This document shows positions 12,586-33,410 of a stretch of DNA of 33,482 nt, piece after piece (the first letter of the stretch is position 1; every line of letters starts with the position of its first letter). The notes beneath the pieces are model-generated. The model was not told the origin of the DNA and did not search any database. It saw only the letters and a list, made by a program, of their open reading frames with translations. The stretch is taken from the NCBI GenBank assembly GCA_043798045.1, contig JAZDPD010000112.1:1-33482 (forward strand). The letters run 5' to 3'. The stretch is from Candidatus Omnitrophota bacterium (GTDB lineage Bacteria > Omnitrophota > Gorgyraeia > Zapsychrales > Fredricksoniimonadaceae). The position numbers were made by a program, and so were the translations under genes.

Positions 12586-13799
12586 ATATGGAAGAAGACC
12601 TTGCCATTGAATTAAGGGATGTGAGTGAGACGTATGAAATAGAAATAAAGACCGATGAAAAAACGGTGCGCGAGGAAACCGAGGTTTTAAAGAATATTTC
12701 ATTGAAGGTTAAAAAGGGCGAGTCCATTGCGATCCTTGGGGCCAATGGTGCCGGCAAATCGACGATTCTAAGAGTTATCGCCGGACTTTTGAAACCGGAT
12801 AAAGGGGATGTTTGTGTGCGGGGGGTTGTTGGCAGCCTTCTGGATCTTGGGGCAGGCTTTCACCCGGAGTTGACCGGGAGGGAGAATCTTCGGCTAAATG
12901 CCGGTTTTTATAATTTCAATCGGAGTGAGTTTGAGGCCAGGTATGAGGAAATCCTGAAATTTGCTGATATTGGCAAATTCATTGATGTGCCGGTGCGGTG
13001 TTATTCCCAGGGCATGTATGTGCGTCTGGCCTTTAGCCTGGCCATTCATGTGAATCCCGACATCCTTTTGATCGATGACTGCCTTTCGGTGGGGGATGAT
13101 AATTTTCAGTTAAAGTGCATTGATAAGGCGCTTGAATTGAAAATGAAGAATAAAACCATTGTCCTGGTTACGCATAATTTTACATTGGCCAAACAGCTCT
13201 GCCAGCGTGGTATCTATATCCGCGACCAGGGGATTGCCCTGGATGCGACGGTTGATCAGGCGGTCTCGACATATTTGACGGTTTCCAAGATGGTTAAGGA
13301 TCAGTATCAGTATTTAAAAGCGCGTATTCAGGAAATTGAAGATTATGAAAAAACAGAGGCTGATTCCTGGCAGCGGAAAATAGACTTGCAACGTCAGACG
13401 GAACAGCTGCAGTGGGATCAGGAGGCTGGCCGCCGTCGTGAGGCTGATGACCGGCGATGGGAAGAGGAGACGCTTGCCCGGCGTCAGAAAGAAGAATTGC
13501 AATGGGATCAGGAGTTTGCCAGGGTGCGTGCACAGGAAGAGGTGCAGTGGCTGCAGGAGGTAAAGCGCCGGCGTGATGCGGAAGGGTTGGCGTGGGCGGT
13601 TGAGGTTGGGCAAAGGCGTGATGCGGATGATGCTGCATGGGAAAAAGCGGCGCAGGAGCGCCGTGCCAAGCAGGAACGTGACTGGGCGGATTCGTTTATG
13701 AAAAGGTGTGCCGATGAACAGGCGCGATGGGAGAAAGAAATGAACGGGAGGCGTGAGGTGGAAAAATCGGTTAAAGCTAACGAGAAGGGGGCGGCATGA
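12582..13799 (+). CDS. wzt: polysaccharide export ABC transporter ATP-binding protein (Wzt/TagH-like) with a non-canonical Trp-periodic charged C-terminal extension
   Basis: Walker A GANGAGKST, signature-like YSQGMYVRLAFS, Walker B ILLIDDCLSVGD, and an H-loop region LVTHN. Residues from about 250 to 405 form an Arg/Glu/Gln/Trp-rich repeat instead of a recognisable carbohydrate-binding domain. Confidence 0.9.
   Translation: MNMEEDLAIELRDVSETYEIEIKTDEKTVREETEVLKNISLKVKKGESIAILGANGAGKSTILRVIAGLLKPDKGDVCVRGVVGSLLDLGAGFHPELTGRENLRLNAGFYNFNRSEFEARYEEILKFADIGKFIDVPVRCYSQGMYVRLAFSLAIHVNPDILLIDDCLSVGDDNFQLKCIDKALELKMKNKTIVLVTHNFTLAKQLCQRGIYIRDQGIALDATVDQAVSTYLTVSKMVKDQYQYLKARIQEIEDYEKTEADSWQRKIDLQRQTEQLQWDQEAGRRREADDRRWEEETLARRQKEELQWDQEFARVRAQEEVQWLQEVKRRRDAEGLAWAVEVGQRRDADDAAWEKAAQERRAKQERDWADSFMKRCADEQARWEKEMNGRREVEKSVKANEKGAA
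13368..13772 (+). repeat. nine tandem 15-residue (45-nt) units, each beginning with Trp, in the Wzt C-terminal tail
   Basis: TGG codons occur at 13368 and then every 45 nt, ending at 13728 (both end codons checked in frame). The units are WQRKIDLQRQTEQLQ / WDQEAGRRREADDRR / WEEETLARRQKEELQ / WDQEFARVRAQEEVQ / WLQEVKRRRDAEGLA / WAVEVGQRRDADDAA / WEKAAQERRAKQERD / WADSFMKRCADEQAR / WEKEMNGRREVEKSV. Confidence 0.85.
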
Positions 13800-14095
13800 G
13801 GACATCATCATTATTAAAGAATGCGGCACATGTGGTTTTATTACTGGGCATTGTTGCCGCCATGCAGAAATTTTCTGTTGATTCGCTGATGTTTTGGGTT
13901 GTTATTGTCGTGGCGGGTGTTTTATGGCTGGTGTTAAGGTTGCTGGCCATTATAGGACAGCTTGTATATGAAATGCGCAATGATTCGGCCCGTGTTTTGA
14001 GCCAGGTCGAACGTTCGCTGTATCAGATCAATGCTTCCATGCAGGAAGTGCGGGATTTGATGGATTCCAATATAACCACGAAGGATGTGGCATGA
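13796..14095 (+). CDS. small membrane protein (two hydrophobic helices plus a polar helical tail), function unknown
   Basis: ATGA overlaps occur at both ends: with the Wzt stop at 13796-13799 and with the rSAM start at 14092-14095. Hydrophobic segments are AAHVVLLLGIVAAM and FWVVIVVAGVLWLVLRLLAIIG. No family was recognised. Confidence 0.55.
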   Translation: MRTSSLLKNAAHVVLLLGIVAAMQKFSVDSLMFWVVIVVAGVLWLVLRLLAIIGQLVYEMRNDSARVLSQVERSLYQINASMQEVRDLMDSNITTKDVA

Positions 14096-16920
14096 AGGTT
14101 TTTATAATAAATCTGCCGTGGGAAAAGGGTGGATTATGGGGTGTGCGCGCCGGCTCTCGATGGCCGCATATCAAGACGTCTCTGGAAAGGCATTACTCTC
14201 CGTTCCCATTCTTTATGGCGTATGCCGCGGCTCTTTTGAAACGGGAGGGCGTTGAGGTTTGTCTCATTGATTCTTTGGCTGAACAGATCACACTGGATAA
14301 TCTTTTGTCAATGATAGATGCGGGTAAGCCGGATCTTGTGGTGGCGGAAACATCTTCGCCGTCATTATTGAATGATTTGATGATCCTCAACAAGCTTCCT
14401 GCAAAGTTGCCGGTGGCGTTATGTGGTCCTGAAGTTAGTATCCGGGATTTGCATTTTCTTAAGGAGCGTCCGCGCATCACTTATGTGTTTGTGGGGGAAT
14501 ATGAGTTTACTCTTTTGGAATTGGTGCAGTGCTTGAAGGCGGGGCAGGATTTGTCGGGCGTTAAAGGGTTGATCTATCGGGCTCAGGGCCAATGCGTGAC
14601 CAACCCCCCTCGTCCTCTTTTGGAAAACCTGGATGATTTGCCCTGGCCTTTGCGTGACGGGCTTCCCATGGAAAAATACAATGATACGCCCGGGGGGATC
14701 CCATTTCCGAGTGTGCAGATGTGGTCTTCGCGCGGGTGTCCGTATCATTGTTTGTTTTGCAGCTGGCCGCAATTGATGTACCAGAGTCATCGGTACAGAA
14801 CACGCAGCGTGACTGATGTTGTTGATGAGATGGAGTATCTTGTGAATGTGAAGGGGTTTAAGTCTGTATATTTTGATGATGATACCATGAATGTTGGCAA
14901 GCAGCGGATGATGGCGTTGGCAGACGAGATCAAGCGCAGATGTTTGAATGTGCCCTGGGCGATGATGGCGCGGGCGGATTTGATGGAGGAGGATGTGCTT
15001 GAAAACCTGTGTTCCGCCGGATTGGCAGCCGTGAAATACGGGGTTGAGTCGGGTGATCAGCGGCTTGTTGATAACATTAACAAGAAGCTTGATCTGCAGA
15101 AGCTGGAACGGATGGTCCGGTTTACGCAATCTATAGGCATTAAAACACATTTGACGTTTACCTTCGGGCTGCCGGGTGAAACGCACGAAACGATCCAGAA
15201 GACAATTGACTTTGCCAGGCATCTTGATCCAGACACGCTGCAGTTTTCCATTACAACGGCTTTTCCCGGAACACAGTATTACAGGGAGCTTGAAACAAGG
15301 GGGCATATTGTTTCGCGGGATTTACAAGATTATGACGGGAATTCCAGATCCATGCTGCGGACAGCGTGTTTGAGCGCCAAGGAGTTGCAGAGGGCCAAGC
15401 AGGATGCGGACTGGCTTTGGCAGGAACATGTATGGGCAACACGCAAGCACGTTAAGTTGGATGCGGGTTTTCGTGAACGATGTGTGATGTTCGGGAAGAA
15501 AAATGTGTTGCGGCCATTGGTCTTGATGTGGCGATCTTTAATTCGGTATTGTTTGTTGATGGGCCGGAGATTGTGTTCACCGAATCTTAGCATGCAAGTC
15601 AAGGAGCCTGATCTTAGCCTGATTTTTCTCGCCCGGGAATGTTTTTTGAGGATGGGAAGGTGTGTATTAAGGTGGGGCCATGAAACGCTGGCCAGGGTAT
15701 GTGCCCTCAGGCACTGGTATGAGCCTCAGCGGGTATGGTTGAAAAAACTGAAGAATAATGTATTGAACCTGATGGGTGTGCATCATGGGGCTTATGCGTT
15801 TAAAGGCCCGGATTGTGTGCAGATTGATTTGACGAGTAATTGTAATAATAATTGCGTCAGTTGTTGGTGTAATTCCCCGCTCTTAAAAACAAGAATGTAT
15901 AAAGGGGCCAAGAGGTACAAGACCTTGCCGACGCCCATGGTTCTTGCCTTGATGGAGGATCTTGTTGGACTTGGGACCAGCGAGTTGTATTTTTCTGGCG
16001 GCGGCGAGCCGTTCATGCACCCCGATCTTATGACGATCGTGGCGCAGGCCAAGGCCAGGGGGCTGCACTGCTGCATCAATACCAATTTCACGCTTGTGGA
16101 TGAGGCGGTTATTAAACAGCTCATTGATCTTTCGGTGGATGCGTTGACCGTGAGTTTCTGGGCGGCGAATCCGGAGTCCTATGTGCGTACGCATCCTAAT
16201 AAGGATGCCGCCACGTTTGAGCGGATGACACAGATGCTGCGGCTTTTAAATACAGCCAAAGACGGCAGAAAACCGTACATCAAGATTTACAATGTGATTT
16301 CCAACCTGAATTATACAGAGCTTGAAGAGATGGTGGCTTTTGCGGAAGAAACCGGTTCTGAATCCGTGGAGTTCGCGGTGGTGGATACGATTCCCGGCGC
16401 TACGGATCAGCTGTTGCTCAATTATGAACAACGTCAAGCGGTATTGGCGCAGTGTTCGCGGATAATGGCGGCGGCGCATAAGGTGAAGGTGCTTAATCTG
16501 GATACCTTGATACGGCGGTTTTCCGATGTGAGTGCCCAGGAAGCACAATATGACAGCGGGATATTCCAGGAATCATCCTGTTATGTGGGGTGGGTTTTTA
16601 GCCGTATCATGTCCAATGGGGATGTGAATTTCTGCTTGAAAGCTCATCGCATGCCTGTAGGGAATTTGTATGAACATTCTTTCCGCGCTATATGGAATTC
16701 GGCCAAACAGCAGGAATTTCGCGGAAAGGCTTTAAAATTTGATAAGGACGACAGCTTTTTCAAGGCTATCGGTAATGATGAGAATTGTAAAATGGGTTGT
16801 TATAAAAGCTGTGATGATATTGGCAGGAATATGGTGGTGCAGGAGAAAATGAAGCGCCTGTCTTCTGTGCAGAAGACATTGTTGACAATAATGGCCAAAG
16901 TTATGGGGCGCAGGGTTTAA
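14092..16920 (+). CDS. dual radical SAM protein: N-terminal B12-binding-domain radical SAM fused to a C-terminal SPASM/twitch-like radical SAM
   Basis: The N-terminal half begins MKVFIINLPW...GVRAGSRWPH, a class B rSAM style start. Core 1 is SSRGCPYHCLFCSWP (14737-14760). The linker is basic and hydrophobic (about 15440-15770). Core 2 is DLTSNCNNNCVSCWC (15841-15864), followed by YFSGGGEPFMHPD. A C-terminal Cys cluster (16579-16812) contains C-x17-C with NGDVNFC (G-x4-C) and CKMGCYKSC. Confidence 0.88.
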   Translation: MKVFIINLPWEKGGLWGVRAGSRWPHIKTSLERHYSPFPFFMAYAAALLKREGVEVCLIDSLAEQITLDNLLSMIDAGKPDLVVAETSSPSLLNDLMILNKLPAKLPVALCGPEVSIRDLHFLKERPRITYVFVGEYEFTLLELVQCLKAGQDLSGVKGLIYRAQGQCVTNPPRPLLENLDDLPWPLRDGLPMEKYNDTPGGIPFPSVQMWSSRGCPYHCLFCSWPQLMYQSHRYRTRSVTDVVDEMEYLVNVKGFKSVYFDDDTMNVGKQRMMALADEIKRRCLNVPWAMMARADLMEEDVLENLCSAGLAAVKYGVESGDQRLVDNINKKLDLQKLERMVRFTQSIGIKTHLTFTFGLPGETHETIQKTIDFARHLDPDTLQFSITTAFPGTQYYRELETRGHIVSRDLQDYDGNSRSMLRTACLSAKELQRAKQDADWLWQEHVWATRKHVKLDAGFRERCVMFGKKNVLRPLVLMWRSLIRYCLLMGRRLCSPNLSMQVKEPDLSLIFLARECFLRMGRCVLRWGHETLARVCALRHWYEPQRVWLKKLKNNVLNLMGVHHGAYAFKGPDCVQIDLTSNCNNNCVSCWCNSPLLKTRMYKGAKRYKTLPTPMVLALMEDLVGLGTSELYFSGGGEPFMHPDLMTIVAQAKARGLHCCINTNFTLVDEAVIKQLIDLSVDALTVSFWAANPESYVRTHPNKDAATFERMTQMLRLLNTAKDGRKPYIKIYNVISNLNYTELEEMVAFAEETGSESVEFAVVDTIPGATDQLLLNYEQRQAVLAQCSRIMAAAHKVKVLNLDTLIRRFSDVSAQEAQYDSGIFQESSCYVGWVFSRIMSNGDVNFCLKAHRMPVGNLYEHSFRAIWNSAKQQEFRGKALKFDKDDSFFKAIGNDENCKMGCYKSCDDIGRNMVVQEKMKRLSSVQKTLLTIMAKVMGRRV

Positions 16921-16921
16921 C

Positions 16922-16929: not shown

Positions 16930-16935
16930 TGGGAT

Positions 16936-18729
16936 ATGTGGGGTGGGATAATTTCATATTTTGCTTCTTGGCTGGTGAAGCACTTGCAACGGCAGATGGC
17001 GTTGACGTGGATCCTGATCAAGGCTGTCCGTGCGAAGGCGATGTCCCGTGATGTGATCTTTCGTTGTTATGGCCAGCATGCGTATTTGCACATTCTTTCA
17101 TCGCAAAAGAATGATTTTGAATTATTTGTTCTGGCCATCGAGATCAACAAAATGGTCGGCAACAAGATCGGGTTTGTCATTAAGATCGACAGGGTCAATT
17201 TTTGTTACTTGGAAGAAGTGCTCAATTTTTGCCTTGGTGCTATCGGCGCGAAGTTGATGAATGTCAAGAGGCCCGACGCGGATGAGGCGAAGAGTTTGTT
17301 TGAGCGGTATGAAGGCCTTGTGGCAGGGTTGAACAAGGAGCTGTTGCCGCTCAAGGTGAGTTTCATTTTTGATGATAAAGACCGGCCTGTCTTGAAGCGG
17401 GTGTTGGATTCATTTGAAAACATAGGAAAGAAGTCGCCCGAGTTCGTGAATGACCTTTCTGCAGTGTTTCATCTTTTGGATGCCATCAAAGAGCAGAGGC
17501 ATTCCGCACCGACCACAAACCGGTATTTCAGCTTGTTGTCTGAAGAGCTTATCCTGGGCCCGCGGCAGGTGGTTTTGGACCTGTATCATAAATGCAATAC
17601 AGATTGTGTTCATTGCTGGATCCACAGTCCGACAGCCCGGAAGGTGCTGACCAAGGAGTTTGCTTCTCAGATGATGGATTATGATGTCGTCAAGAAGATC
17701 ATTGATGATTGTTTCAGCCTGGGCGTTGATACCATCACGCTTTTGGGGGATGGTGAGCCGATCCTGCACCCTGATTTTGTCCGCATCGTTAAATATATCA
17801 AGAAAAAGAATCCCTATATGGATGCGTTGACTTTTTCCAATGGCTTGGCATTGACGCCCAGGGTTAGTCAGGAGCTTGTTAAATCCGGGCTCAATGAGAT
17901 TTGGTTCAGTGTCCCGGCCGCCAGCCCCGAGGTTTATCAAAAGATATGCCCTTCCAAGAAGGCGAGGGATTTTGAACGCATAAAAAAGAATATTCACTAT
18001 TTATGCCGTTTGAAGAATAAGGTCAGGGATCTGGTGCAAAAGTTTGACCTTTCAGAAAAGAATGCGATCATTGCGCGAGGCGCCAGGGTAAAAACGTTTC
18101 CGATGCATTGTGTCATCACGTTTGTTTTGCATAATCTCAATTATCATGAAATCCTGGACATGGCCAATATGGCGGTTGAGCTGGGTGTGGACGAGATGCG
18201 TTTTCAACTGATACATTTGGACAGGGATAACAAATGGCTTCAATTGGATCAGGCGCAGGTTGATTTCCTGAACAGCAAGCTGCAGGAGGTGAGGGCTGTT
18301 GCTGAAAAGGGCCGTGTGATGCTGGGCCTGGCACTGGAGTTTCAGCTTTCGCATATGCATGCGCCCACAGGTGACTGGAGCCGGGGATACTATTTACAGC
18401 ATGGATGTCCTATCGGCTTTTTCTTTTCCATCATCAAGGCTAATGGCGATGTAGGTTTGTGCTGCAGCCTGAAGGTTGTTGATAACGTTCATAACAAAAG
18501 TTTTAAGGAGATATGGCTATCGCAGCGTTACCATCAGGCCAGGGTGGGGGCCAAACATCTTCGGGATAATAAAGATCAGCTTTTCCAGTCAACCACATAC
18601 CATAAGAATGAGGCAAGGGGGGATTATCTGTATTCGGAAAGGTGTGAGCTTTGTGATAATCATGATATGAACAATGAGGTGATCCAGTGCTTGTCCCGCA
18701 TCAAGCTGGCAGATCCGTTTATGAAGTAA
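16936..18729 (+). CDS. radical SAM protein with SPASM/twitch-like C-terminal Cys motifs and an uncharacterised ~200-aa N-terminal domain (paralog 1)
   Basis: CxxxCxxC motif YHKCNTDCVHCW (17593-17616, first Cys is residue 220). LLGDGEPILHPD forms the SAM-binding GGE-like strand. C-terminal motifs are GCPIGFFFSIIKANGDVGLCC (G-x4-C) and ERCELCDNHD (18406-18654). It is homologous to the C-terminal half of the 14092 protein and to the 25599 protein. Confidence 0.85.
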   Translation: MWGGIISYFASWLVKHLQRQMALTWILIKAVRAKAMSRDVIFRCYGQHAYLHILSSQKNDFELFVLAIEINKMVGNKIGFVIKIDRVNFCYLEEVLNFCLGAIGAKLMNVKRPDADEAKSLFERYEGLVAGLNKELLPLKVSFIFDDKDRPVLKRVLDSFENIGKKSPEFVNDLSAVFHLLDAIKEQRHSAPTTNRYFSLLSEELILGPRQVVLDLYHKCNTDCVHCWIHSPTARKVLTKEFASQMMDYDVVKKIIDDCFSLGVDTITLLGDGEPILHPDFVRIVKYIKKKNPYMDALTFSNGLALTPRVSQELVKSGLNEIWFSVPAASPEVYQKICPSKKARDFERIKKNIHYLCRLKNKVRDLVQKFDLSEKNAIIARGARVKTFPMHCVITFVLHNLNYHEILDMANMAVELGVDEMRFQLIHLDRDNKWLQLDQAQVDFLNSKLQEVRAVAEKGRVMLGLALEFQLSHMHAPTGDWSRGYYLQHGCPIGFFFSIIKANGDVGLCCSLKVVDNVHNKSFKEIWLSQRYHQARVGAKHLRDNKDQLFQSTTYHKNEARGDYLYSERCELCDNHDMNNEVIQCLSRIKLADPFMK

Positions 18730-18833
18730 AGGGATGGTGTATTGCCGCCTGAGGGATGTCGCACATTGTGTGTTTCAAGAAATAATGGTATGTCCGTGTC
18801 GGGACAGGGTTGTGTCGATTGGAAAGGAAGAGG

Positions 18834-20162: not shown

Positions 20163-20176
20163 AAATTGATGGTCGG

Positions 20177-21604: not shown

Positions 21605-21656
21605 TGTCGGTTTGTTCTATTTTGTTGTGGCGAGCAACGGGAGCCCGGATTGCTGC

Positions 21657-24241: not shown

Positions 24242-24288
24242 GTTTAAACGTGTGGGTATGGATTGTTAATGGCGGCTGAGGGTTGTTA

Positions 24289-27418: not shown

Positions 27419-28975
27419 ATGGATAAGGATCTGCTTTTAATTCATTGCCCTTTGGCGTCTGTTGATTTGCCGCCTATGGGGGTGGCGTATATTGCCGCCT
27501 TTGCTCAGGCACAGGGGGTTGTGTGCGATATATTGGATTTAAATGCGTTGCTTCATATTCGTGGTACGGAAAAGCAGAAATGTCTCTGGGATGCGGAGAA
27601 TTATAATCATTGGATCGACGAGGGGTTGTTTGATGCCATTAAGGATGTTCTTAAAGAACCGGTGGAGTCCTGGATCAATTACGTGCTCAAGCAGGGGTAT
27701 CGAACTGTTGGTTTTTCGCTTACGGGAAGCAATCTTCTGTTTTCGATATGGTTAAGCCAGTGTCTGAAGGCCTCTGATGCGTCGATATGTATCGTTTATG
27801 GTGGCCCAACAGTTCATTTCAAACATATTAATCTAGATCCTTTTCGTTTTCTTTCTTCGGTAACGACAGGCGAGCTGTTGGTCAATGAAAAGATGGTGGA
27901 TTATATTGTTTTGGGTGAGGGGGAGAAGGCTATTGTGGATATCGTTCAGGCCGTTAAAGCCGGAAAGCCGGTGGATAATCCCAGTGTGGTGACAACGACC
28001 TGCAAGAAATTGAGTAACAAGCTTTCTTATGTTGATCGACTGGATGATCTGCCTTTCCCTGCCTGGGAAAAACTTTCTTTGAACCAATATACTGTTCGAG
28101 AGGAATTACCGATTCTTTTTAGCCGGGGCTGCGTTAATCATTGTGCGTTTTGTAATGACTGGCTGATCTGGAACGGTAAATATCGTTGCCGGTCAGCCAA
28201 AAATATTTTTCTGGAAATGAAAACAATGAGCCGGCGGTATGGCAAAAGGTCTTTTCGTTGCAATGACTTGATGTTTAACGGCAATTTGAACATGCTTGAT
28301 GAATTGTCGGGTCTGTTGATTGCCTCGGGGCTTGAAGTGAATTGGGGTGGCCAGGGATATATACGTAAGGATATGACGCAACAGTTGTTAGATAAAATGT
28401 ATAAGGCCGGTTTGCGGGATATTGTTTTCGGGGTAGAGAGTTTGTCTGATCATGTGCTTGTAAAAATGCGCAAACCGTTCACGTTTGATGATGTTTTGCT
28501 GGTGTTAAAGAGAACCAAGGCGGCGGGTATCCGAACGCATATAAATTTGATTGTGGGATTTCCGGGAGAAACCGAGGAGGATCATTTGTTGACACAGGAA
28601 CGGCTTGGTGTATTAAGCCCGGTGCTGGATACGGTGGCTAATATCAATTGCTGTCGTCTTATGGCGGATGCGCCGATTGAATCATGCTTTGATCAGTTTG
28701 GCATTGTGTGTGCGGACAAGCCTAATATGTGTGAGGCCTGGGGTACCATCGATGGTTTGAATAATCTTGACATCAGGCAGCAGCGGATGGATGAAATGGA
28801 ACATGCTGTGGCCAGGTCTGGCATCAAACGGGTGATTGAGCCCTTGAAGGCTCCAGCATTGTCGCAGGGGCATGGATGGATGGTTATTTGTGGGCATGTC
28901 TGGCGGGTGCTCTTGTGGTTAATTGCGGCGGTGTTATTACTGAAATTTGTTTTACGCGTATTGCACAGTAAATAA
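27419..28975 (+). CDS. B12-binding-domain radical SAM protein with a C-terminal hydrophobic tail
   Basis: The N-terminus DLLLIHCPLASVDLPPMGVAYIAAFAQAQG has a B12-binding-domain rSAM style. It has the motifs DDLPFPAW and FSRGCVNHCAFCNDW (28130-28153). The C-terminal WRVLLWLIAAVLLLKFVL looks like a tail anchor. Confidence 0.85.
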   Translation: MDKDLLLIHCPLASVDLPPMGVAYIAAFAQAQGVVCDILDLNALLHIRGTEKQKCLWDAENYNHWIDEGLFDAIKDVLKEPVESWINYVLKQGYRTVGFSLTGSNLLFSIWLSQCLKASDASICIVYGGPTVHFKHINLDPFRFLSSVTTGELLVNEKMVDYIVLGEGEKAIVDIVQAVKAGKPVDNPSVVTTTCKKLSNKLSYVDRLDDLPFPAWEKLSLNQYTVREELPILFSRGCVNHCAFCNDWLIWNGKYRCRSAKNIFLEMKTMSRRYGKRSFRCNDLMFNGNLNMLDELSGLLIASGLEVNWGGQGYIRKDMTQQLLDKMYKAGLRDIVFGVESLSDHVLVKMRKPFTFDDVLLVLKRTKAAGIRTHINLIVGFPGETEEDHLLTQERLGVLSPVLDTVANINCCRLMADAPIESCFDQFGIVCADKPNMCEAWGTIDGLNNLDIRQQRMDEMEHAVARSGIKRVIEPLKAPALSQGHGWMVICGHVWRVLLWLIAAVLLLKFVLRVLHSK

Positions 28976-28993
28976 AGGAAAAAAGGATTGAGT

Positions 28994-29155
28994 ATGGCTA
29001 CGTGGTTGCGCAATCATTTGTCGCGAGGCGTTTTTCGATTGCTGTTAAGCCCGGCACTTGTTTTGTTGTTGAGCTATCATTTGTTGTTTTCCGTGTATCT
29101 TCATTTGGTCAAGTGTTATCGAAGAACGGAAATGTTCCGGGGTTGTGAATCATGA
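28994..29155 (+). CDS. small hydrophobic protein (53 aa), absent from the supplied ORF track
   Basis: AAGGA lies about 7 nt before ATG 28994. The product is MATWLRNHLSRGVFRLLLSPALVLLLSYHLLFSVYLHLVKCYRRTEMFRGCES. Its TGA (29153-29155) overlaps ATG 29152 of the GT4 gene in the same ATGA arrangement used elsewhere in the operon. It fills an otherwise 176-nt gap. Confidence 0.4.
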   Translation: MATWLRNHLSRGVFRLLLSPALVLLLSYHLLFSVYLHLVKCYRRTEMFRGCES

Positions 29156-30306
29156 AAATACTCATGGTTCATCCGCATGATATTTATTCGCCCCTTGAGC
29201 CGTGGACGATCCGCGTGGTTCGGTTGGCGTGTCAGCTGGCCGCCAACGGGCATCAGGTGACGCTGGCGCATTTTCCGTATTCAGCCGGGGAAGTTCGTTC
29301 GCTTCCTGGAGTGTTTGTGGTGGGGATGGAACGAAAAATGTCGGCAGGGGCCTTTTGCCGCAATGGTTGGCGTTTGTATCAATTGGCCAGGGGCGTGGAT
29401 GTGGTTCATTTTCAAAAAAGCCAGTTTTACGCCGCACTGCCTGCTGTTGTGGCGGCATACCTGGCCGGAAGGCATCTTCATTATGACTGGGATGATTGGG
29501 AGGAAAAGATATTTTATAAGGCGATTGAAAGATCCAGCTTGTCGACATGTTTAACAGGGGCTTCATTTTTCTTTATGGAAAGGATGCTGCCGATTTTGGC
29601 AGATAGCACCTCTGTTGCCAGTGAGGCACTGAGGCAATTGGTTGTGGCACGAGGTGCTGACCAATCCAGGGTTGTTTGGATTCCGGTTGGCGCTGATTTG
29701 CAGCAGTTTAATCCGGGACAAGATGGTTTGCCGTTGAGGAAAAGGTATGATTTAACAACGGAAATCCTTGTATTTTATCATGGTCAATTGCATTCTTGTC
29801 AGTATGGGGGGCTTTTTCTGGAGGCCATCAAGTGTGTGTGTGCGGGGGATCAGGGCCGGAGGATGAAATTCATGATTGTTGGCAGCGGGTCAGATCTCAA
29901 CCGTTTGCGGGCCTTGGCCCAGGATCTTGGTGTGGCGGAGCGTGTGATCTTTACTGGATTTGTACCGCACCATGAGGTGGCGGATTATATTGCGGCTGCG
30001 GATATTTGTGTGGCACCTTTTGAGGATAATGAGGTGACGCGCTGCAAGAGTCCGTTGAAAATTGTTGAGTATTTGGCGTCGGGAAAGCCTGTTGTGGCCA
30101 GTGATGTCGGGGAAATTTCGCGCATGCTGGATGGTGCGGGTATTCTTGTCAAACCCGGCTGTCCTCAAGCGCTGGCTCAAGGGATGTTAAAGCTGGCTCA
30201 GGATAAACAGCTGCGTTGTGCCTTATCCGTTCAAGCGCGATTGAGAGCTGCAAAGTTCAACTGGAAGGCGCTGGCTGAGAAATTGGAAATGGCATATGTG
30301 GCCTGA
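29152..30306 (+). CDS. glycosyltransferase family 4 (GT-B fold)
   Basis: MKILMVHPHD...RVVRLACQLAANGHQVTL is a typical GT4 N-domain start. The C-domain has FTGFVPHHEVADYIAAADICVAPF and SPLKIVEYLASGKPVVASDVGE (an EX7E-like region). Confidence 0.85.
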   Translation: MKILMVHPHDIYSPLEPWTIRVVRLACQLAANGHQVTLAHFPYSAGEVRSLPGVFVVGMERKMSAGAFCRNGWRLYQLARGVDVVHFQKSQFYAALPAVVAAYLAGRHLHYDWDDWEEKIFYKAIERSSLSTCLTGASFFFMERMLPILADSTSVASEALRQLVVARGADQSRVVWIPVGADLQQFNPGQDGLPLRKRYDLTTEILVFYHGQLHSCQYGGLFLEAIKCVCAGDQGRRMKFMIVGSGSDLNRLRALAQDLGVAERVIFTGFVPHHEVADYIAAADICVAPFEDNEVTRCKSPLKIVEYLASGKPVVASDVGEISRMLDGAGILVKPGCPQALAQGMLKLAQDKQLRCALSVQARLRAAKFNWKALAEKLEMAYVA

Positions 30307-30358
30307 TGTGTTGTTTTTATGATGACGTCCCGGAATCTGTCAGCAGAAAGGTTTTAAA

Positions 30359-31963
30359 GTGAAGGATCGCTGGAGGAAGGGCGTAGACGTCTATTGTGTT
30401 TGGTTCATGTTTGGATTTCTTGTGTTGGCGCATTTGATCCTGGCCAAGGCCTGGATTGGCCAGCATTTGATCCTGCGGTATAATAATTCACATGGTTATG
30501 TCACAGCGATCGCGGCCGTGTTTCGTAACATGGTGGATTCTCATGCAGGCTTTCTTCATGGTGTTGTGACATGTCAGTTTGCGCAAGATGTGGGTGAATA
30601 TTGGCCATCATTGGTTCACCGGACCTATCTTTTGGGCCTTCTTTGCCTGTCCTACAAGTGGATGTTCCTGATCAATTTCGTCTATTTAATTGTCATCATG
30701 CTGGGGATATATTTCACCGTTCGGTTTTTAATTGGTGATCGTTTTTACAGCCTGCTGGCCGCGGCTCTTTTTTCTTGTTACGGTGTCATCGGAATGCAAT
30801 TGATTTCGTGTGAACTGCAATTGGCTGGTATGGCGAGTATTGTGTGGGGATTTTATTGGTACATTAGGTCAGCCTTCTTCACGCGTCTTTGGCCGGTCGT
30901 TTTCTTCACCGTGTGTGTGATCCTGGCATTTTATTGCGAGAGGGTGACGATGGGGCTCTATCTGGGTGCTTTATTTTTTGTGCCGCAGAATTTCAAGAAC
31001 AGGAGATCCGTTCTTGTGATGGCCCTGGCAGGGTTGGTTGTCCTGGCGAGTATTTGGCCGTTTTATTATCATTGGTTCATGATGCGGGATTGGTCTTCCG
31101 GGTTGGTGGAATTTTTTGATATAGCGGGCGATCAGTTGGGTGTCGTGGCCTCGTATAAGATGATTTTGAATAATCCTACGTTTGTAGGGATGCACATCCT
31201 GTACTATTTCCTTTGTTTACCGGAGATGTTGCTGGGTCGCGGGTTTACATTCTTACTGCTTGTGGGTTTCTGGTTTTTAAGAGGCTGGAAAGATGGCTGG
31301 CGATCAGTTTTGCTTTTTGCTCTCTTTGTTCCTTTGGCTGGTTTTATTTTAATTGCCAAGAAGCATTACCTGTTTATTATTCCTCTTTGTGTATATTTCT
31401 CCATGATAACGGCGATAGGCATCTTTTCGATATCACGACAGTCTGTTCGAAATCTTCTCGTTGGTCTTGCGCTGGTATTGTGTGCCGTGTACAGTTTTAA
31501 CACCTATTCATCGGGGCGTCCTTTGGAAAAAGTTTTGTTCAGTGGTAGTTTTCCGTTTATAAAGACCCTGGGTGTTCCCAAGCTTTTTTCCTGGGACTGT
31601 TTCGGAGTGGCTGATTATAAAAGGGTGAGGGAAATGGCCGAAAGCATCAGACCGTTTCTTTATCCATTGTCAGGTTCTCGAAAAGTTCTCATGGTTGATT
31701 TGAAAGAATATGTGCAACAGCATACGCTGGTGTATTTATTGCAGTTGACCTTGGAAAAGATAGCGGTTGTTAATGTGCGCTTCAGTGATCATGTGGATCC
31801 TGGTCAATGGCTGCAGGATGCGGACGGATATCTTTTATCCGATAAAATGAAATATTCGGATGCATTGGCTGCCAAGGATATCGGTGGCTGCGCCTATCGT
31901 GGGGTTGAGCCCGTATTTAATCTTTCGGGAAGTGAAGTCGTTTTATATAAGGTCAGGCGATAA
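30359..31963 (+). CDS. polytopic membrane protein with a ~130-aa C-terminal soluble domain; candidate GT-C-type glycosyltransferase or polymer-modifying enzyme
   Basis: GTG 30359 is preceded by GAAAGG 8 nt upstream. There are many hydrophobic helices through about residue 400, then a polar domain. The acidic first-loop motif QDVGEYW is loosely reminiscent of the ArnT/PMT families. No strong family motif was recognised. Confidence 0.5.
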   Translation: MKDRWRKGVDVYCVWFMFGFLVLAHLILAKAWIGQHLILRYNNSHGYVTAIAAVFRNMVDSHAGFLHGVVTCQFAQDVGEYWPSLVHRTYLLGLLCLSYKWMFLINFVYLIVIMLGIYFTVRFLIGDRFYSLLAAALFSCYGVIGMQLISCELQLAGMASIVWGFYWYIRSAFFTRLWPVVFFTVCVILAFYCERVTMGLYLGALFFVPQNFKNRRSVLVMALAGLVVLASIWPFYYHWFMMRDWSSGLVEFFDIAGDQLGVVASYKMILNNPTFVGMHILYYFLCLPEMLLGRGFTFLLLVGFWFLRGWKDGWRSVLLFALFVPLAGFILIAKKHYLFIIPLCVYFSMITAIGIFSISRQSVRNLLVGLALVLCAVYSFNTYSSGRPLEKVLFSGSFPFIKTLGVPKLFSWDCFGVADYKRVREMAESIRPFLYPLSGSRKVLMVDLKEYVQQHTLVYLLQLTLEKIAVVNVRFSDHVDPGQWLQDADGYLLSDKMKYSDALAAKDIGGCAYRGVEPVFNLSGSEVVLYKVRR

Positions 31964-31982
31964 TGGAAGACATGATGCGTAG

Positions 31983-33410
31983 ATGGGTGTTGACATGAAG
32001 ATTGCCTTGATCCATTGTCCTTTCGAGCACAGGGACTTTTCTGAGAATCTGCGGATCGTTGATGAGGAGTTTTGTCATGCGCCTCCGATTATCCTGGCTT
32101 ATGTGGCGGCGATTCTGGAGGGGGCCGGGCATGAGGTCATTATCGTTGAGGCCAACATTCTCAAGCTTACCAAGGAAAAGGTTCTGGATGTGCTCCGGCA
32201 TTTTTCTCCGGATTTGATCGGTTTCAGGGCAGATACATATTGGTTCCATCGCGTTGTTGAATGGGCTTCGTTTTTTAAGGCGAGGATGGATGTTAAGGTC
32301 ATTGTTGGCGGGATCAATGTTACGCTTTATCCCAAGGAATCTTTATCTTATGATTGTTTTGATTATGGAATCTCGGGTGAGGCCAATGAGTCCCTGCCAC
32401 AACTTTTGCAATGCTTGAAAAAGGGGGGTGACCCCGGTTCGATCAGCGGGTTGGTATATAGGTCGGGTCAAGGGGTGGTTGTAAATCCTTGTTCAGAGAA
32501 AAAGATACCTTTTGATGATTATCCTTTTCCGGCAAGGCATTTGTTGCCGAATCATCTTTATAGCTCGTTCACGTCGCAGCGGAAGAATTATACGGTTATG
32601 CTCACCAGCACCGGGTGTCCTTTCGGGTGTTCTTTTTGTGCTATTAGCCGCCAGTTTTTCAGACATCGATCTGTCCGCAGTGTTATTAAGGAGGTTGAGT
32701 GCTGTTGCAGGGAATATCAGGTGCGGGAAATTGATTTTTTTGCACCGTCATTTTTTGTTCACAGGGAGTTTGTGCTTGAGTTTTGTCGTGAAATGATCAA
32801 GGAAGATTTTGGGGTTGAATGGTCGTGCCGCAGCCGGGTGGATCAGGTGGATCAGGAGGTTTTGAGGCTGGCGCACGCTGCCGGTTGCCGCAAGATTTAT
32901 TATGGCATTGAGTCGGTGTCCCCGGATGTTTTGCAGAATATTGCCAAAGATATTAATGTGGCGCAGATCAGGGAGGCTATTCGTTGGACACATGAGGCCG
33001 GTATAAGTACGTTAGGGTTTTTCATGTTGGGTAATCCCGGGGATACCAGGGAAAGCATTTTGGCATCCATTGATTTTGCTAAAGAGCTGCAGCTTGATTA
33101 TGTTCAGGTTTGCCGGACTGTTGCCAAGCCGGATACGGTGTTAAATGATCTTATGATTGAAAAGGGCGGCAAGGATGTCTGGAGAAACTTTCTTTTGGAG
33201 CAAGGTTCCCAGCCACACATGCCCACGCCATGGACGTCGTTGTCCCGGGAAGAGTTGGATGGATATGTGAGGCTCTTTTATCAATCTTTTTATTTTCGTC
33301 CTGCCTATATTGTGAAAAGATTGCTGAAGCTCAGGTCGCCGGAAGAGTTGTTTCGTTTTATGTGGGTGGCGGCAAGGTGGCTTGTGGTTAGGGATCTTCA
33401 TAAGAAATAG
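31983..33410 (+). CDS. B12-binding-domain radical SAM protein
   Basis: MKIALIHCPFEH...PPIILAYVAAILEGAGHEVIIVEAN (ATG 31995 is an alternative start), YPFPARHLL, TSTGCPFGCSFCAIS (32616-32639), YYGIESVSPDVL and FFMLGNPGDT. Confidence 0.85.
   Translation: MGVDMKIALIHCPFEHRDFSENLRIVDEEFCHAPPIILAYVAAILEGAGHEVIIVEANILKLTKEKVLDVLRHFSPDLIGFRADTYWFHRVVEWASFFKARMDVKVIVGGINVTLYPKESLSYDCFDYGISGEANESLPQLLQCLKKGGDPGSISGLVYRSGQGVVVNPCSEKKIPFDDYPFPARHLLPNHLYSSFTSQRKNYTVMLTSTGCPFGCSFCAISRQFFRHRSVRSVIKEVECCCREYQVREIDFFAPSFFVHREFVLEFCREMIKEDFGVEWSCRSRVDQVDQEVLRLAHAAGCRKIYYGIESVSPDVLQNIAKDINVAQIREAIRWTHEAGISTLGFFMLGNPGDTRESILASIDFAKELQLDYVQVCRTVAKPDTVLNDLMIEKGGKDVWRNFLLEQGSQPHMPTPWTSLSREELDGYVRLFYQSFYFRPAYIVKRLLKLRSPEELFRFMWVAARWLVVRDLHKK

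What the first reader, a model, noticed from the sequence alone, without database searches (positions are those of the whole stretch)
13796..33410. Radical-SAM-dense tailoring module wired into a Wzm/Wzt glycan export operon
Directly downstream of wzm/wzt, and on the same strand with overlapping stops and starts, lie five proteins with six CxxxCxxC radical SAM cores. The cores are at 14737, 15841, 17593, 26256, 28130 and 32616. Three have B12-binding-domain style N-termini and three have SPASM/twitch-like Cys tails. They are interleaved with four SGNH-like/TPR paralogs, an FAD oxidoreductase, a GT4 and a GT-C-like membrane protein. Ordinary O-antigen or capsule loci rarely carry even one radical SAM gene. 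Characterised carbohydrate precedents exist: GenK, GenD1 and Fom3 for B12-rSAM C-methylation, and BtrN for twitch-domain rSAM sugar oxidation. From these I infer multiple radical-mediated modifications of an exported glycan, such as C-methylation, oxidation, epimerisation or cross-linking. I do not recognise this combination as a described system.
Basis: partly seen in the sequence, partly recalled or inferred. Interest (0 to 1): 0.85.

Follow-up and report, generated by a model that had tools for sequence, protein, structure and literature searches.

The report
Radical-SAM enzyme cassette on glycan exporter
An uncultured Omnitrophota bacterium carries a sugar-polymer export operon that is directly followed by six radical-SAM enzyme domains; the same arrangement recurs in hundreds of related environmental genomes and has not been described, which points to unknown radical chemistry on a cell-surface glycan.

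Summary
Five proteins carry six CxxxCxxC radical SAM cores at exactly the stated coordinates. Three have B12-binding-type N-domains and three have SPASM-type tails. They lie on one strand, translationally coupled to wzm/wzt, and are interleaved with SGNH/TPR paralogues, a flavoenzyme, a GT4 and a divergent GT-C-like membrane protein.

It is not chance. The core is an HpnJ/AprD4-like B12-domain rSAM plus a twitch/SPASM rSAM, fused here into one 942-aa protein. That core sits directly downstream of Wzt in 27 of 35 assessable metagenome loci and 12 of 15 genome loci, almost all labelled Omnitrophota. Relatives carry fusions of three or four rSAM domains, and a B12-rSAM–TM–SGNH fusion.

No curated family cut-off is reached, and I found no paper describing the cassette.

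Best reading (confidence 0.55): membrane-associated radical tailoring of a WecA-primed, lipid-linked glycan before Wzm/Wzt export, followed by periplasmic SGNH/TPR ester chemistry.

The chemistry is unknown. The closest characterised relatives (HpnJ, AprD4, DesII) rearrange, dehydrate or oxidise sugars.

Verdict: new variant of a known kind, high interest.

The parts
214..1212 (+). WecA/MraY-family polyprenyl-phosphate sugar-1-phosphate transferase (initiating enzyme). Recurrent member of the wider conserved cassette.
   Evidence: PF00953, 112 bits. TIGR02380 WecA, 85.6 bits, below cut-off. A homologue lies upstream of Wzm/Wzt in L001, L004, L033, L039, L045 and others.
1202..2497 (+). Flavoenzyme 1 (amine-oxidase fold, PRK07208 group, UDP-galactopyranose-mutase-like). 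Recurrent upstream partner of Wzm/Wzt.
   Evidence: PF01593, 99.8 bits. NF005547, 187 bits, below cut-off. Seen as WecA-FAD-Wzm-Wzt in many loci.
2621..8816 (+). Sugar-precursor and decoration genes: GT2 (2621-3457), SDR epimerase/dehydratase (3454-4524), WbuX-like N-acetyl-sugar amidotransferase (4575-5609), two small TM ORFs (5616-5846, 5857-6027), NodU-like carbamoyltransferase (6040-7749), second SDR (7746-8816).
   Evidence: Pfam and NCBIfam hits.
8850..10313 (+). SGNH/TPR paralogue, type A, interrupted by an in-frame TAG at 9066 (pseudogene, sequencing error or read-through).
   Evidence: Frame translation and 56% identity to the next gene, with Q at the aligned position. TPR hits.
10339..11757 (+). 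SGNH/TPR paralogue, type A, with N-terminal TM helix and canonical TPR repeats.
   Evidence: Lipase_GDSL_2, 38.3 bits; TPR_2, 68.5 bits. TM at residues 9-27.
11800..12585 (+). Wzm, ABC-2 permease.
   Evidence: PF01061, 49.3 bits. Galactan Wzm model, 73 bits, below cut-off.
12582..13799 (+). Wzt, nucleotide-binding subunit with a charged Trp-periodic coiled-coil tail. It lacks the long C-terminal extension found in most relatives.
   Evidence: PF00005, 80 bits. TagH 172 bits and Wzt 155 bits, below cut-offs. The relative in L009 matches the Aquifex Wzt structures at 222 bits.
13796..14095 (+). Conserved 99-aa protein with two TM helices and a C-terminal helix, translationally coupled on both sides.
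   Evidence: Orthologues in L001 and L003, and in L038-L040, L057, L058, L060, L061 and L104. TM scan.
14092..16920 (+). 942-aa double radical SAM protein. N-half is a B12-binding-like domain plus an rSAM core (HpnJ/AprD4-like). C-half is an rSAM core plus a twitch/SPASM tail.
   Evidence: The halves are separate adjacent genes in many relatives and fused in 44 of 80 metagenome loci. Invariant auxiliary Cys: C830, C848, C903, C907.
16936..18729 (+). [quoted passage not shown]
   Evidence: AlphaFold model, pLDDT 88. Foldseek matches SkfB, DesII, SuiB, BlsE, PqqE. 513 representatives at E<1e-30.
18810..20162 (+). SGNH/TPR paralogue, type B, copy 1 (membrane-anchored).
20177..21604 (+). Flavoenzyme 2, UDP-galactopyranose-mutase-like.
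   Evidence: PF13450 and PF01593. Best PDB match is UGM 4DSG, 46 bits, residues 6-448.
21612..22946 (+). SGNH/TPR paralogue, type B, copy 2.
22955..24241 (+). SGNH/TPR paralogue, type B, copy 3 (the one modelled).
   Evidence: Invariant S56, G92, N125, D404, H406. Model pLDDT 79. SGNH esterase fold with a ~230-aa helical insertion.
24283..25602 (+). SGNH/TPR paralogue, type B, copy 4.
25599..27395 (+). 598-aa paralogue of the 597-aa rSAM (R597b, 49% identical).
27419..28975 (+). 518-aa B12-binding rSAM with a C-terminal TM helix. Orthologues in L001 and L008 continue into a periplasmic SGNH domain.
   Evidence: TM at residues 497-515. 790-791-aa fusions.
28988..29155 (+). Conserved 55-aa single-TM ORF overlapping the GT4 start.
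   Evidence: Orthologues at the same position in L001 (14205-14360) and L008 (14190-14342).
29152..30306 (+). GT4 glycosyltransferase. Recurrent partner downstream of the rSAM core.
   Evidence: PF13692, 97 bits. A GT4 orthologue follows the rSAMs in 20 of 45 assessable loci.
30359..31963 (+). 534-aa polytopic membrane protein, a divergent GT-C (PMT_2)-like candidate.
   Evidence: About 10 TM segments. No Pfam hit. BLASTP E=8e-8 to a PMT_2 protein of L033. Local jackhmmer link.
31983..33410 (+). 475-aa B12-binding rSAM (HpnJ/AprD4-like).
   Evidence: PF02310, 62.9 bits; PF04055, 79 bits. HpnJ model, 166 bits, below cut-off. AprD4 6FD2, 95 bits.

Best explanation
The region is the variable part of an Omnitrophota-wide cell-envelope glycan pathway of the ABC-transporter-dependent (Wzm/Wzt) type, and radical SAM enzymes are core components of it.

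Proposed steps, each marked by its basis:
1. A WecA-family enzyme primes a polyprenyl phosphate. GT2 and GT4 enzymes extend the chain. SDR, WbuX-like, carbamoyltransferase and UGM-like enzymes supply or decorate unusual sugars. (Basis: homology.)
2. The obligate rSAM pair acts at the cytoplasmic face of the membrane on the lipid-linked glycan, or on its terminal residue. The pair is an HpnJ/AprD4-like B12-domain rSAM and a twitch/SPASM rSAM, fused here into one 942-aa protein. A 5'-deoxyadenosyl radical abstracts a sugar hydrogen atom. This is followed by rearrangement, dehydration, oxidation or alkylation. (Basis: inference from conserved synteny, fusions and nearest characterised relatives.)
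3. Lineage-specific accessory rSAMs add further modifications. Here these are two 597-aa paralogues, a TM-anchored 518-aa B12-rSAM and a 475-aa B12-rSAM. (Basis: inference.)
4. Wzm/Wzt exports the product. (Basis: homology.)
5. Membrane-anchored periplasmic SGNH/TPR paralogues remove or transfer ester-linked groups. A GT-C-like protein adds or transfers sugars outside the cytoplasm. (Basis: inference.)

The exact chemistry is not known.
For: - All six rSAM domains, the B12 domains and the SPASM tails are real.
- The genes form one co-directional, translationally coupled unit with wzm/wzt.
- In loci seeded with the 597-aa family, 12 of 15 assessable genome loci have Wzt directly upstream of the rSAM block.
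- In an independent metagenome set seeded with the double rSAM, 27 of 35 loci with at least 3.5 kb upstream have Wzt directly upstream. In 66 of 67 loci the SPASM partner is fused or adjacent.
- WecA, the UGM-like flavoenzyme and GT4 recur around the core.
- Two fusions link the parts: the B12-rSAM and SPASM-rSAM halves are joined, and the 518-aa orthologues are B12-rSAM–TM–SGNH fusions. The second fusion places the rSAM and the SGNH domain on opposite faces of the membrane in one polypeptide.
- The nearest characterised relatives act on sugars: HpnJ (257 and 166 bits), AprD4 (89-95 bits) and DesII/BlsE.
- The small ORFs in the operon are TM proteins, not peptide precursors.
- The SGNH paralogues keep Ser/Gly/Asn/His, have an N-terminal TM helix and fold like carbohydrate esterases.
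Against: - There is no biochemical evidence. No rSAM here reaches any curated family cut-off, so every functional transfer is remote.
- Foldseek neighbours of the 597-aa protein include peptide maturases (SkfB, SuiB, PqqE, anSME) as well as sugar enzymes.
- DesII, BlsE and AprD4 act on soluble substrates, not lipid-linked polymers. Action on nucleotide sugars is therefore equally compatible with homology.
- 8 of 35 assessable metagenome loci lack an adjacent Wzt.
- Cobalamin binding is untested, and AprD4 is classed outside the true B12-dependent enzymes.
- The window's 518-aa protein lacks the SGNH domain, and its Wzt lacks the long C-terminal extension of relatives.
Confidence: 0.55

Rival explanations
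1. The rSAM enzymes make unusual nucleotide-sugar precursors in the cytosol (deoxygenation, deamination, decarboxylation, C-methylation of NDP-sugars). Glycosyltransferases then incorporate these precursors. On this reading the polymer itself is not the radical substrate.
For: The closest solved or characterised relatives with sugar substrates (AprD4, DesII, BlsE, BtrN) act on small soluble molecules. SDR, amidotransferase and UGM-like precursor enzymes are in the same operon.
Against: - The 518-aa rSAM is TM-anchored and is fused to a periplasmic SGNH domain in relatives.
- The rSAM core is placed immediately after wzt rather than with the precursor genes, and this position is conserved.
- The 597-aa protein has an N-terminal amphipathic helix.
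- Fusions of three or four rSAM domains fit processive action on a polymer better than single precursor steps.
Confidence: 0.22
2. The rSAMs modify a lipid: the polyprenyl carrier, a glycolipid anchor, or a membrane-spanning or hopanoid-like lipid. Wzm/Wzt exports a glycolipid rather than a polysaccharide.
For: - The best family hit is HpnJ, a hopanoid side-chain enzyme. There are weaker hits to ladderane-lipid B12-rSAM and to tetraether synthase Tes.
- Omnitrophota are reported to encode rSAM lipid enzymes (Mss, Hbs).
- L001 has UbiA and AA-kinase genes nearby on the other strand.
Against: - HpnJ itself acts on the sugar (glucosamine) part of the hopanoid, not on the lipid.
- Scores for Tes and ladderane models are far below their cut-offs (32-116 bits against 360-450).
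- No lipid-synthesis genes are in the window.
- The conserved partners are WecA, GT4, GT2 and GT-C.
Confidence: 0.12
3. The SPASM/twitch rSAMs mature a peptide or protein (a RiPP, a cofactor-bearing enzyme or a surface glycoprotein). The ABC-2 transporter exports that product.
For: SPASM domains are typical of peptide maturases. Foldseek top hits include SkfB, SuiB, PqqE and anSME. NCBIfam's best hit is a 'tungsten cofactor oxidoreductase maturase'.
Against: - No precursor-like ORF is present. The two conserved small ORFs are hydrophobic TM proteins.
- The N-domain of the 597-aa protein has a β-α-β layout, not a winged-helix RRE.
- The conserved neighbours are glycan genes.
- All family scores are far below cut-off.
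Confidence: 0.07
4. The rSAM genes and the glycan genes are merely neighbours with no shared pathway.
For: Eight of 35 assessable loci lack an adjacent Wzt.
Against: - Gene order is conserved across dozens of divergent loci (45-70% identity).
- Start and stop codons overlap with wzt.
- rSAM and SGNH domains are fused.
Confidence: 0.02

Closest known systems
ABC-transporter-dependent (Wzm/Wzt) polysaccharide pathways: O-antigens such as E. coli O9a and Aquifex aeolicus, mycobacterial galactan, and wall teichoic acid TagGH
   Same: A WecA-family initiating enzyme, cytoplasmic GT2/GT4 extension, an ABC-2 permease and a Wzt/TagH-type ATPase. Relatives also have a long Wzt C-terminal extension, which parallels the cap-binding domains of some Wzt proteins.
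   Different: - None of the described pathways has radical SAM enzymes as conserved core members. Here 3 to more than 8 rSAM domains follow wzt.
- The C-terminal extension of Wzt has no sequence match to solved structures.
- The periplasmic partners are SGNH/TPR proteins.
HpnJ (hopanoid cyclitol-ether formation, acting with HpnI and HpnK)
   Same: HpnJ is the best-scoring curated family for two of the three B12-domain rSAMs, with near full-length alignment. HpnJ acts on a lipid-linked amino sugar. One relative locus (L037) places an HpnJ-like rSAM next to a YdjC-family gene, GT2 genes and a GT4 gene.
   Different: - Scores of 257 and 166 bits are far below the 577.6-bit cut-off.
- No squalene-hopene cyclase or HpnH context is present.
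- YdjC is absent from the window and the other loci.
- The domain is fused to a second rSAM, which HpnJ is not.
AprD4 (radical SAM diol dehydratase of apramycin biosynthesis; PDB 6FD2)
   Same: It is the best solved-structure match for both HpnJ-like proteins (89 and 95 bits). It has a sugar substrate and a B12-like N-domain.
   Different: - AprD4 acts on a soluble pseudodisaccharide in an antibiotic pathway.
- It is classed outside the true cobalamin-dependent enzymes.
- The NCBIfam AprD4 model scores 96-107 bits against a cut-off of 500.
Class B (cobalamin-dependent) rSAM C-methyltransferases: GenK, GenD1, Fom3, TokK, QCMT
   Same: Same domain order (B12-binding domain followed by the rSAM core). 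The 518-aa protein's best hits are RiPP C-methyltransferase TIGR03975 (121 bits) and QCMT 9CCB (40 bits).
   Different: All scores are far below cut-offs. For the other two B12-domain proteins, methylases rank below HpnJ, BchE and AprD4. No methyl-transfer evidence exists.
Twitch/SPASM sugar-acting rSAMs (BtrN, DesII, BlsE)
   Same: Same fold class. They are Foldseek neighbours of the 597-aa protein (E 1e-11 to 4e-7), and there is a weak DesII sequence hit to the 942-aa C-half.
   Different: - Identity is 12-15%.
- Peptide maturases score equally well.
- The 597-aa family has an extra ~200-aa N-domain and a distinctive Cys pattern (C491, C509/C510, C570, C573).
Extracytoplasmic SGNH domains of glycan O-acyl systems (OatA/OafA C-domains, PatB/Ape, AlgJ/AlgX) and carbohydrate esterases (Axe2, acetyl-mannan esterase)
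   Same: Membrane-anchored SGNH fold with conserved Ser/Gly/Asn/His. The best structural neighbours include acetyl-xylan and acetyl-mannan esterases.
   Different: - No MBOAT or AT3 partner is present.
- A ~230-aa TPR-like insertion splits the SGNH fold.
- Asp sits two residues, not three, before His.
- In relatives the SGNH domain is fused to a B12-rSAM rather than to an acyltransferase.
- The comparison with OatA, PatB and AlgX rests on my own knowledge and was not tested here.

Membership tests
Radical SAM superfamily (PF04055) | CxxxCxxC cluster motif inside an HMM match above the gathering score | tested here: met
   Six motifs at the stated coordinates. PF04055 scores 47.9-130 bits against a cut-off of 29.5 for all five proteins, with two stretches in the 942-aa protein.
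Class B (cobalamin-dependent) radical SAM enzymes | N-terminal B12-binding Rossmann domain (PF02310) preceding the rSAM core | tested here: met
   62.9 bits (475-aa protein) and 33.6 bits (518-aa protein) are above the 32.1 cut-off. The 942-aa N-half scores 28.1 bits (E=1.9e-6), just below it.
Class B (cobalamin-dependent) radical SAM enzymes | Actual cobalamin binding and use (methyl transfer or electron sink) | not testable with these tools
   No sequence motif is diagnostic. AprD4, the closest structure, is classed as unrelated to true B12-dependent enzymes. No cobalamin riboswitch is in the window.
HpnJ (TIGR03471 equivalog) | Score at or above the curated cut-off of 577.6 bits | tested here: not met
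   257.2 bits (942-aa N-half), 165.9 bits (475-aa protein), 66.9 bits (518-aa protein).
HpnJ (TIGR03471 equivalog) | Hopanoid gene context (SHC, HpnH, HpnI, HpnK) | tested here: not met
   None in the window. A YdjC (HpnK-fold) neighbour is seen only in L037.
SPASM domain rSAM (PF13186 / TIGR04085 type) | HMM match above cut-off | tested here: met
   39.8, 32.7 and 30.2 bits against a cut-off of 21.5.
SPASM domain rSAM (PF13186 / TIGR04085 type) | Full seven-Cys motif for two auxiliary [4Fe-4S] clusters | tested here: not met
   Only four invariant Cys in the 942-aa C-half (C830, C848, C903, C907) and five in the 597-aa family (C491, C509, C510, C570, C573). This fits one auxiliary cluster (twitch-like), or two with non-Cys ligands.
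Wzm/Wzt ABC-transporter-dependent glycan pathway | ABC-2 permease plus Wzt/TagH-type ATPase, encoded together with a polyprenyl-P sugar-1-P transferase and cytoplasmic GTs | tested here: met
   PF01061, PF00005, PF00953, GT2 and GT4. The Wzt of relative L009 matches the Aquifex Wzt structure at 222 bits. Curated Wzm/Wzt equivalog cut-offs are not reached.
Wzm/Wzt ABC-transporter-dependent glycan pathway | Wzt C-terminal carbohydrate-binding domain that recognises a chain-terminating cap (present in only some systems) | tested here: inconclusive
   The window's Wzt (405 aa) ends in a coiled coil. Relatives have 350-950 extra residues with no PDB sequence match.
SGNH/GDSL hydrolases | Blocks I, II, III and V with Ser, Gly, Asn and His, and an SGNH α/β/α fold | tested here: met
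   Invariant S56, G92, N125, D404 and H406. Lipase_GDSL_2 scores 35-43 bits against a cut-off of 32.9. The model superposes on TesA and acetyl-xylan esterases with TM 0.69-0.78 normalised to the target. Asp is at -2, not -3.
GT-C glycosyltransferases (PMT_2 / ArnT-like) | Polytopic membrane protein matching a GT-C HMM, with an acidic motif in the first external loop | tested here: inconclusive
   About 10 TM segments. No Pfam hit even at E=1. BLASTP E=8e-8 over 325 aa to a PMT_2 protein at the same position in L033. The catalytic motif was not identified.
RiPP / peptide-maturase systems | Precursor peptide gene and a RiPP recognition element (RRE) in the maturase | tested here: not met
   The only conserved small ORFs are TM proteins. 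The N-domain of the 597-aa model has a β-α-β layout. No RiPP family cut-off is reached.
UDP-galactopyranose mutase | TIGR00031 cut-off of 303.75 bits | tested here: not met
   41.6 and 37.2 bits. The best PDB match is still UGM 4DSG, 46 bits over residues 6-448. The proteins are UGM-like but are not shown to be UGM.

The most novel reading that the evidence does not exclude
Omnitrophota build their main exported envelope polymer by radical chemistry on a lipid-linked glycan. The obligate HpnJ-like/twitch rSAM pair converts sugar residues into carbocyclic (cyclitol-type), deoxygenated or C-C/ether cross-linked units. The fusions of three or four rSAM domains in relatives act as processive 'radical assembly lines' docked to the Wzm/Wzt exporter. 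The product would be a class of cell-surface polymer with no described counterpart.
Probability: 0.2. Interest if true: 0.92.

Novelty: new variant of a known kind. Interest (0 to 1): 0.75.

Why it matters
Radical SAM enzymes are known from antibiotic sugar tailoring, cofactor synthesis, RiPPs and lipids. They are not known as conserved core parts of a cell-envelope glycan export pathway.

Here the association is conserved across a whole candidate phylum of ultra-small, mostly uncultured and probably host-dependent bacteria. At least 499 metagenome loci and over 800 homologous proteins show it, including single polypeptides with three or four rSAM domains.

If the substrate is the exported glycan, this defines new carbohydrate radical chemistry and a possible chemical signature (biomarker) of Omnitrophota surfaces. 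The compact forms of the cassette (GT4-WecA-FAD-Wzm-Wzt-double rSAM-B12 rSAM-GT4) are small enough for heterologous reconstitution, so the question can be tested directly.

Tried and rejected
- An exact-sequence look-up of the window's 597-aa protein found nothing on record, so the source contig is not in the collection.
- NCBIfam gave no hit above any curated cut-off for any rSAM, SGNH or flavoenzyme, so no equivalog naming is possible.
- RiPP reading: I looked for precursor-like small ORFs. The two conserved ones are TM proteins, so I rejected this as the main reading.
- Lipid reading (Tes, Mss, ladderane, hopanoid): scores are far below cut-offs and there is no lipid gene context.
- Six literature searches (Omnitrophota or Omnitrophica with radical SAM; radical SAM with Wzt, Wzm or O-antigen; Velamenicoccus) found no description of the cassette. 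The two Xanthomonas papers mention rSAM and wzt in unrelated places.
- Rfam and tRNA scans found nothing, so there is no cobalamin or SAM riboswitch.
- Pfam on the 534-aa membrane protein and on the two small ORFs gave no significant family.
- The C-terminal extension of Wzt in relatives has no PDB sequence match.
- A YdjC (HpnK-like) partner was sought in all loci and found only in L037.
- Foldseek of the 597-aa model did not discriminate sugar-acting from peptide-acting rSAMs.
Cobalamin-site geometry is therefore untested.

Full report
**What is in the window.** All long ORFs are on the + strand. G+C is 0.43-0.51 and GC skew is unusually strong, +0.19 to +0.35. The gene order, from Pfam and NCBIfam, is:
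- WecA/MraY-family transferase (214-1212)
- amine-oxidase-fold flavoenzyme (1202-2497)
- GT2 (2621-3457)
- SDR (3454-4524)
- WbuX-like amidotransferase (4575-5609)
- two small TM ORFs (5616-5846, 5857-6027)
- NodU-like carbamoyltransferase (6040-7749)
- SDR (7746-8816)
- two SGNH/TPR genes (8850-10313, with an in-frame TAG at 9066; and 10339-11757)
- Wzm (11800-12585)
- Wzt (12582-13799)
- a 99-aa two-TM ORF (13796-14095)
- a 942-aa double rSAM (14092-16920)
- a 597-aa rSAM-SPASM (16936-18729)
- SGNH/TPR (18810-20162)
- a second flavoenzyme (20177-21604)
- three more SGNH/TPR genes (21612-22946, 22955-24241, 24283-25602)
- a 598-aa paralogue of the 597-aa rSAM (25599-27395)
- a 518-aa B12-rSAM ending in a TM helix (27419-28975)
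- a 55-aa one-TM ORF (28988-29155)
- GT4 (29152-30306)
- a 534-aa polytopic membrane protein (30359-31963)
- a 475-aa B12-rSAM (31983-33410)

**Check of the observation.** B12-binding is above cut-off for two proteins and just below it (28.1 against 32.1 bits) for the N-half of the 942-aa protein. SPASM is above cut-off in three proteins. Intergenic distances from wzm to the end are -4 to 80 nt, with four 4-nt overlaps.
- Two conserved small membrane ORFs were overlooked.
- There are six SGNH/TPR genes, not four.
- The SPASM tails keep only four or five invariant Cys.
- The 'GT-C-like' call rests only on E=8e-8 pairwise similarity to a PMT_2 protein at the same position in a relative.

**Is it more than chance?** Yes.

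Homologues of the 597-aa protein are few in the word-indexed search (35), and the named ones are Candidatus Omnitrophota. A profile search finds 513 representatives at E<1e-30. The 942-aa protein has 829 homologues, more than 120 of them above 880 bits. Nearly all the named ones are labelled Omnitrophota/Omnitrophica; the exceptions among those listed are one 'PVC group bacterium' and one unclassified 'bacterium'.

I mapped every window protein onto ORFs of 27 genome loci seeded with the 597-aa family. Among the 15 distinct loci with enough upstream sequence, 12 have Wzt, usually as Wzm-Wzt, directly upstream of the rSAM block.

An independent metagenome scan seeded with the double rSAM found at least 499 loci. 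I mapped the best 80:
- 27 of the 35 loci with at least 3.5 kb upstream have Wzt directly upstream (26 with Wzm as well), and 8 further short contigs also show it.
- In 66 of 67 assessable loci the HpnJ-like B12-rSAM is fused (44) or adjacent to the same SPASM-type rSAM.
- Downstream partners recur: the 518-type B12-rSAM in 22 of 45 loci, a GT4 orthologue in 20 of 45, two or more small rSAM-SPASM paralogues in 13 of 45, and SGNH in 10 of 45.
- WecA and the flavoenzyme commonly precede Wzm.

The closest relative is a MAG labelled Candidatus Omnitrophota (JAZDJU010000100.1; 77% identity for the 597-aa protein). It has the same order, including five SGNH/TPR copies and both 597-type paralogues.

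**Anatomy of the cassette.** The invariant core is Wzm-Wzt followed by the HpnJ-like B12-rSAM and its SPASM partner. Around this core there are at least four architectures:
- Window-like: the 99-aa TM protein and the fused 910-950-aa double rSAM.
- Compact: Wzm-Wzt-double rSAM (1150-1210 aa)-518-type rSAM-GT4.
- Wzm-Wzt-597-type rSAM embedded in 1050-1290-aa proteins, then the B12-rSAM, the SPASM-rSAM, four to eight small rSAM-SPASM paralogues and SGNH.
- Forms with three tandem SPASM-type partners.

Some relatives encode single polypeptides with three or four Radical_SAM domains: 1818 aa in L108, 1429 aa in L109, and 1505 and 1497 aa in L085.

Two fusions are informative. First, the two halves of the 942-aa protein are separate adjacent genes elsewhere, so they work together. 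Second, the orthologues of the 518-aa protein in L001 and L008 are B12-rSAM–TM helix–SGNH (790-791 aa). An Fe-S/SAM enzyme must be cytoplasmic, so the SGNH domain should be periplasmic. The free SGNH/TPR paralogues have a matching N-terminal signal-anchor helix. The window's 518-aa copy keeps the TM helix but has lost the SGNH part.

**What the parts resemble.** No rSAM reaches a curated NCBIfam cut-off.
- The 942-aa N-half and the 475-aa protein score best against HpnJ (257 and 166 bits; cut-off 577.6), then BchE. Their best solved structure is AprD4, a sugar diol dehydratase (89-95 bits). HpnJ makes the cyclitol ether of bacteriohopanetetrol from a glucosamine residue. A 2026 review lists HpnJ among B12-rSAMs with 'other or unknown' chemistry and places AprD4 outside the true B12-dependent enzymes.
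- The 518-aa protein leans towards C-methyltransferase families (TIGR03975, 121 bits; QCMT 9CCB, 40 bits).
- The 597-aa protein gave a confident model (pLDDT 88). It has a long N-terminal helix, a three-stranded α/β N-domain, an rSAM core and a Cys-rich tail. Foldseek returns the SPASM/twitch group in general, both peptide maturases (SkfB, SuiB, PqqE, anSME) and sugar or nucleotide enzymes (DesII, BlsE, MoaA, viperin, BtrN), at 12-18% identity. The fold does not settle the substrate.
- The second flavoenzyme aligns over its full length with eukaryote-type UDP-galactopyranose mutase (46 bits). This hints at furanose formation.
- The type-B SGNH/TPR family is small (22 homologues). It keeps Ser56, Gly92, Asn125 and Asp404-x-His406. 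It models as an SGNH esterase fold split by a ~230-aa helical, TPR-like insertion. Its neighbours include TesA and acetyl-xylan and acetyl-mannan esterases.

**Most likely mechanism.** The following steps rest on homology: priming on a polyprenyl phosphate, extension by GT2/GT4, precursor tailoring, and export by Wzm/Wzt. The rest is inferred from conserved order, translational coupling, fusions and membrane anchoring.
- The rSAM pair and the accessory rSAMs act at the inner face of the membrane on the lipid-linked glycan or its terminus. They use 5'-deoxyadenosyl-radical hydrogen abstraction from sugar carbons.
- After export, anchored SGNH/TPR enzymes carry out ester hydrolysis or transfer, and a GT-C-like enzyme adds or transfers sugars.
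- From the nearest relatives, ring contraction, dehydration or deoxygenation, and oxidation are at least as likely as C-methylation.
- The pattern of a constant core with a variable periphery resembles serotype-like diversification of surface glycans.

I put this reading at 0.55.

**Rivals.**
- Action on soluble nucleotide sugars (0.22) fits the homologues' substrates. It fits less well with the TM anchor, the position next to wzt and the multi-domain fusions.
- A lipid substrate (0.12) is suggested by hits to HpnJ, ladderane and Tes models. HpnJ itself acts on the sugar, and no lipid genes are present.
- A peptide substrate (0.07) lacks any precursor ORF.
- Chance co-location (0.02) is contradicted by synteny and fusions.

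**Comparison with what is known.** The pathway type (Wzm/Wzt-dependent glycan export) is well known. A conserved rSAM core within it is not: no curated model names it, and six full-text searches found no description. I therefore file it as a new variant of a known kind. The system is not a member of the HpnJ, AprD4, class-B methylase or RiPP-maturase families in the strict sense, because the curated cut-offs and the context features were tested and not met. It may still work like the first two.

**Limits.**
- All relatives are MAG or metagenome contigs. Some carry implausible labels (Methanosarcinales, Patescibacteria, Planctomycetia).
- ORF maps come from a simple ORF caller plus phmmer.
- Cobalamin use, the number of auxiliary clusters, the substrate and the product are all untested.

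Noticed in passing
window 8850-10313 (stop at 9066-9068): The first SGNH/TPR gene is interrupted by a single in-frame TAG. The paralogue 10339-11757 (56% identical) has Gln at that position, which would be CAG if the difference is one base. This could be a pseudogene, a sequencing error or read-through. The ORF list therefore shows only a truncated 396-aa ORF from 9123.
   Followed up: partly
window 5616-5846 and 5857-6027: Two small TM ORFs sit just upstream of the NodU-like carbamoyltransferase. The second gives a weak DUF5989 hit (23.7 bits, cut-off 27). From my own knowledge, DUF5989 is a family that accompanies O-carbamoyltransferases (SxtK-like).
   Followed up: partly
window 1-33482: Every gene is on the + strand, and GC skew is very high throughout (+0.19 to +0.35 in 2-kb windows). 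This suggests strong strand-compositional asymmetry in this genome.
   Followed up: no
window 13300-13799 (Wzt residues ~240-405): The Wzt tail is a highly charged, probably coiled-coil region with periodically spaced Trp (…QWDQE…RRWEEE…QWLQE…AWAVE…AWEKA…RDWAD…ARWEKE…). Relatives have the same region followed by a 350-950-aa extension of unknown fold. That extension is missing here and in the closest relative, L006.
   Followed up: partly
L108 7242-12698; L109 11472-15761; L085 3493-8010 and 8003-12496: Relatives encode single polypeptides with three or four Radical_SAM domains (1429-1818 aa). Some combine B12-binding and SPASM domains. This is unusual for the superfamily.
   Followed up: partly
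L037 4152-6411 (GCA_015232235.1, Candidatus Omnitrophica): An HpnJ-like B12-rSAM is directly followed by a YdjC-family gene (the fold of hopanoid HpnK), then PMT_2, GT4, GT2 and two SGNH genes. This echoes the HpnI/HpnK/HpnJ logic of cyclitol-ether formation. YdjC was not found in the window or in the other loci held at that point.
   Followed up: partly
L006 2400-8335 (JAZDJU010000100.1, closest relative): No Wzm is detectable next to Wzt in this locus. The double rSAM is split by a frame change near 6560, which is either an assembly error or a pseudogene.
   Followed up: partly
L084 14257-16350: The cassette's GT4 orthologue is fused to about 300 aa of HEAT repeats (697 aa in total).
   Followed up: no
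L010, L011, L014, L019, L020, L022: Several contigs carrying the cassette are labelled Planctomycetia, Planctomycetales, Patescibacteria or Methanosarcinales archaeon. Given the otherwise Omnitrophota-restricted distribution, these are probably binning or classification errors.
   Followed up: no
L036 8311-11317 (GCA_028713995.1, labelled Deltaproteobacteria): A type-B SGNH/TPR homologue (43% identical) sits next to a carbamoyltransferase, with no rSAM or Wzm/Wzt nearby. The same carbamoyltransferase-SGNH adjacency occurs in L006/L008. This hints that these SGNH proteins might act on carbamoyl or related ester groups.
   Followed up: no
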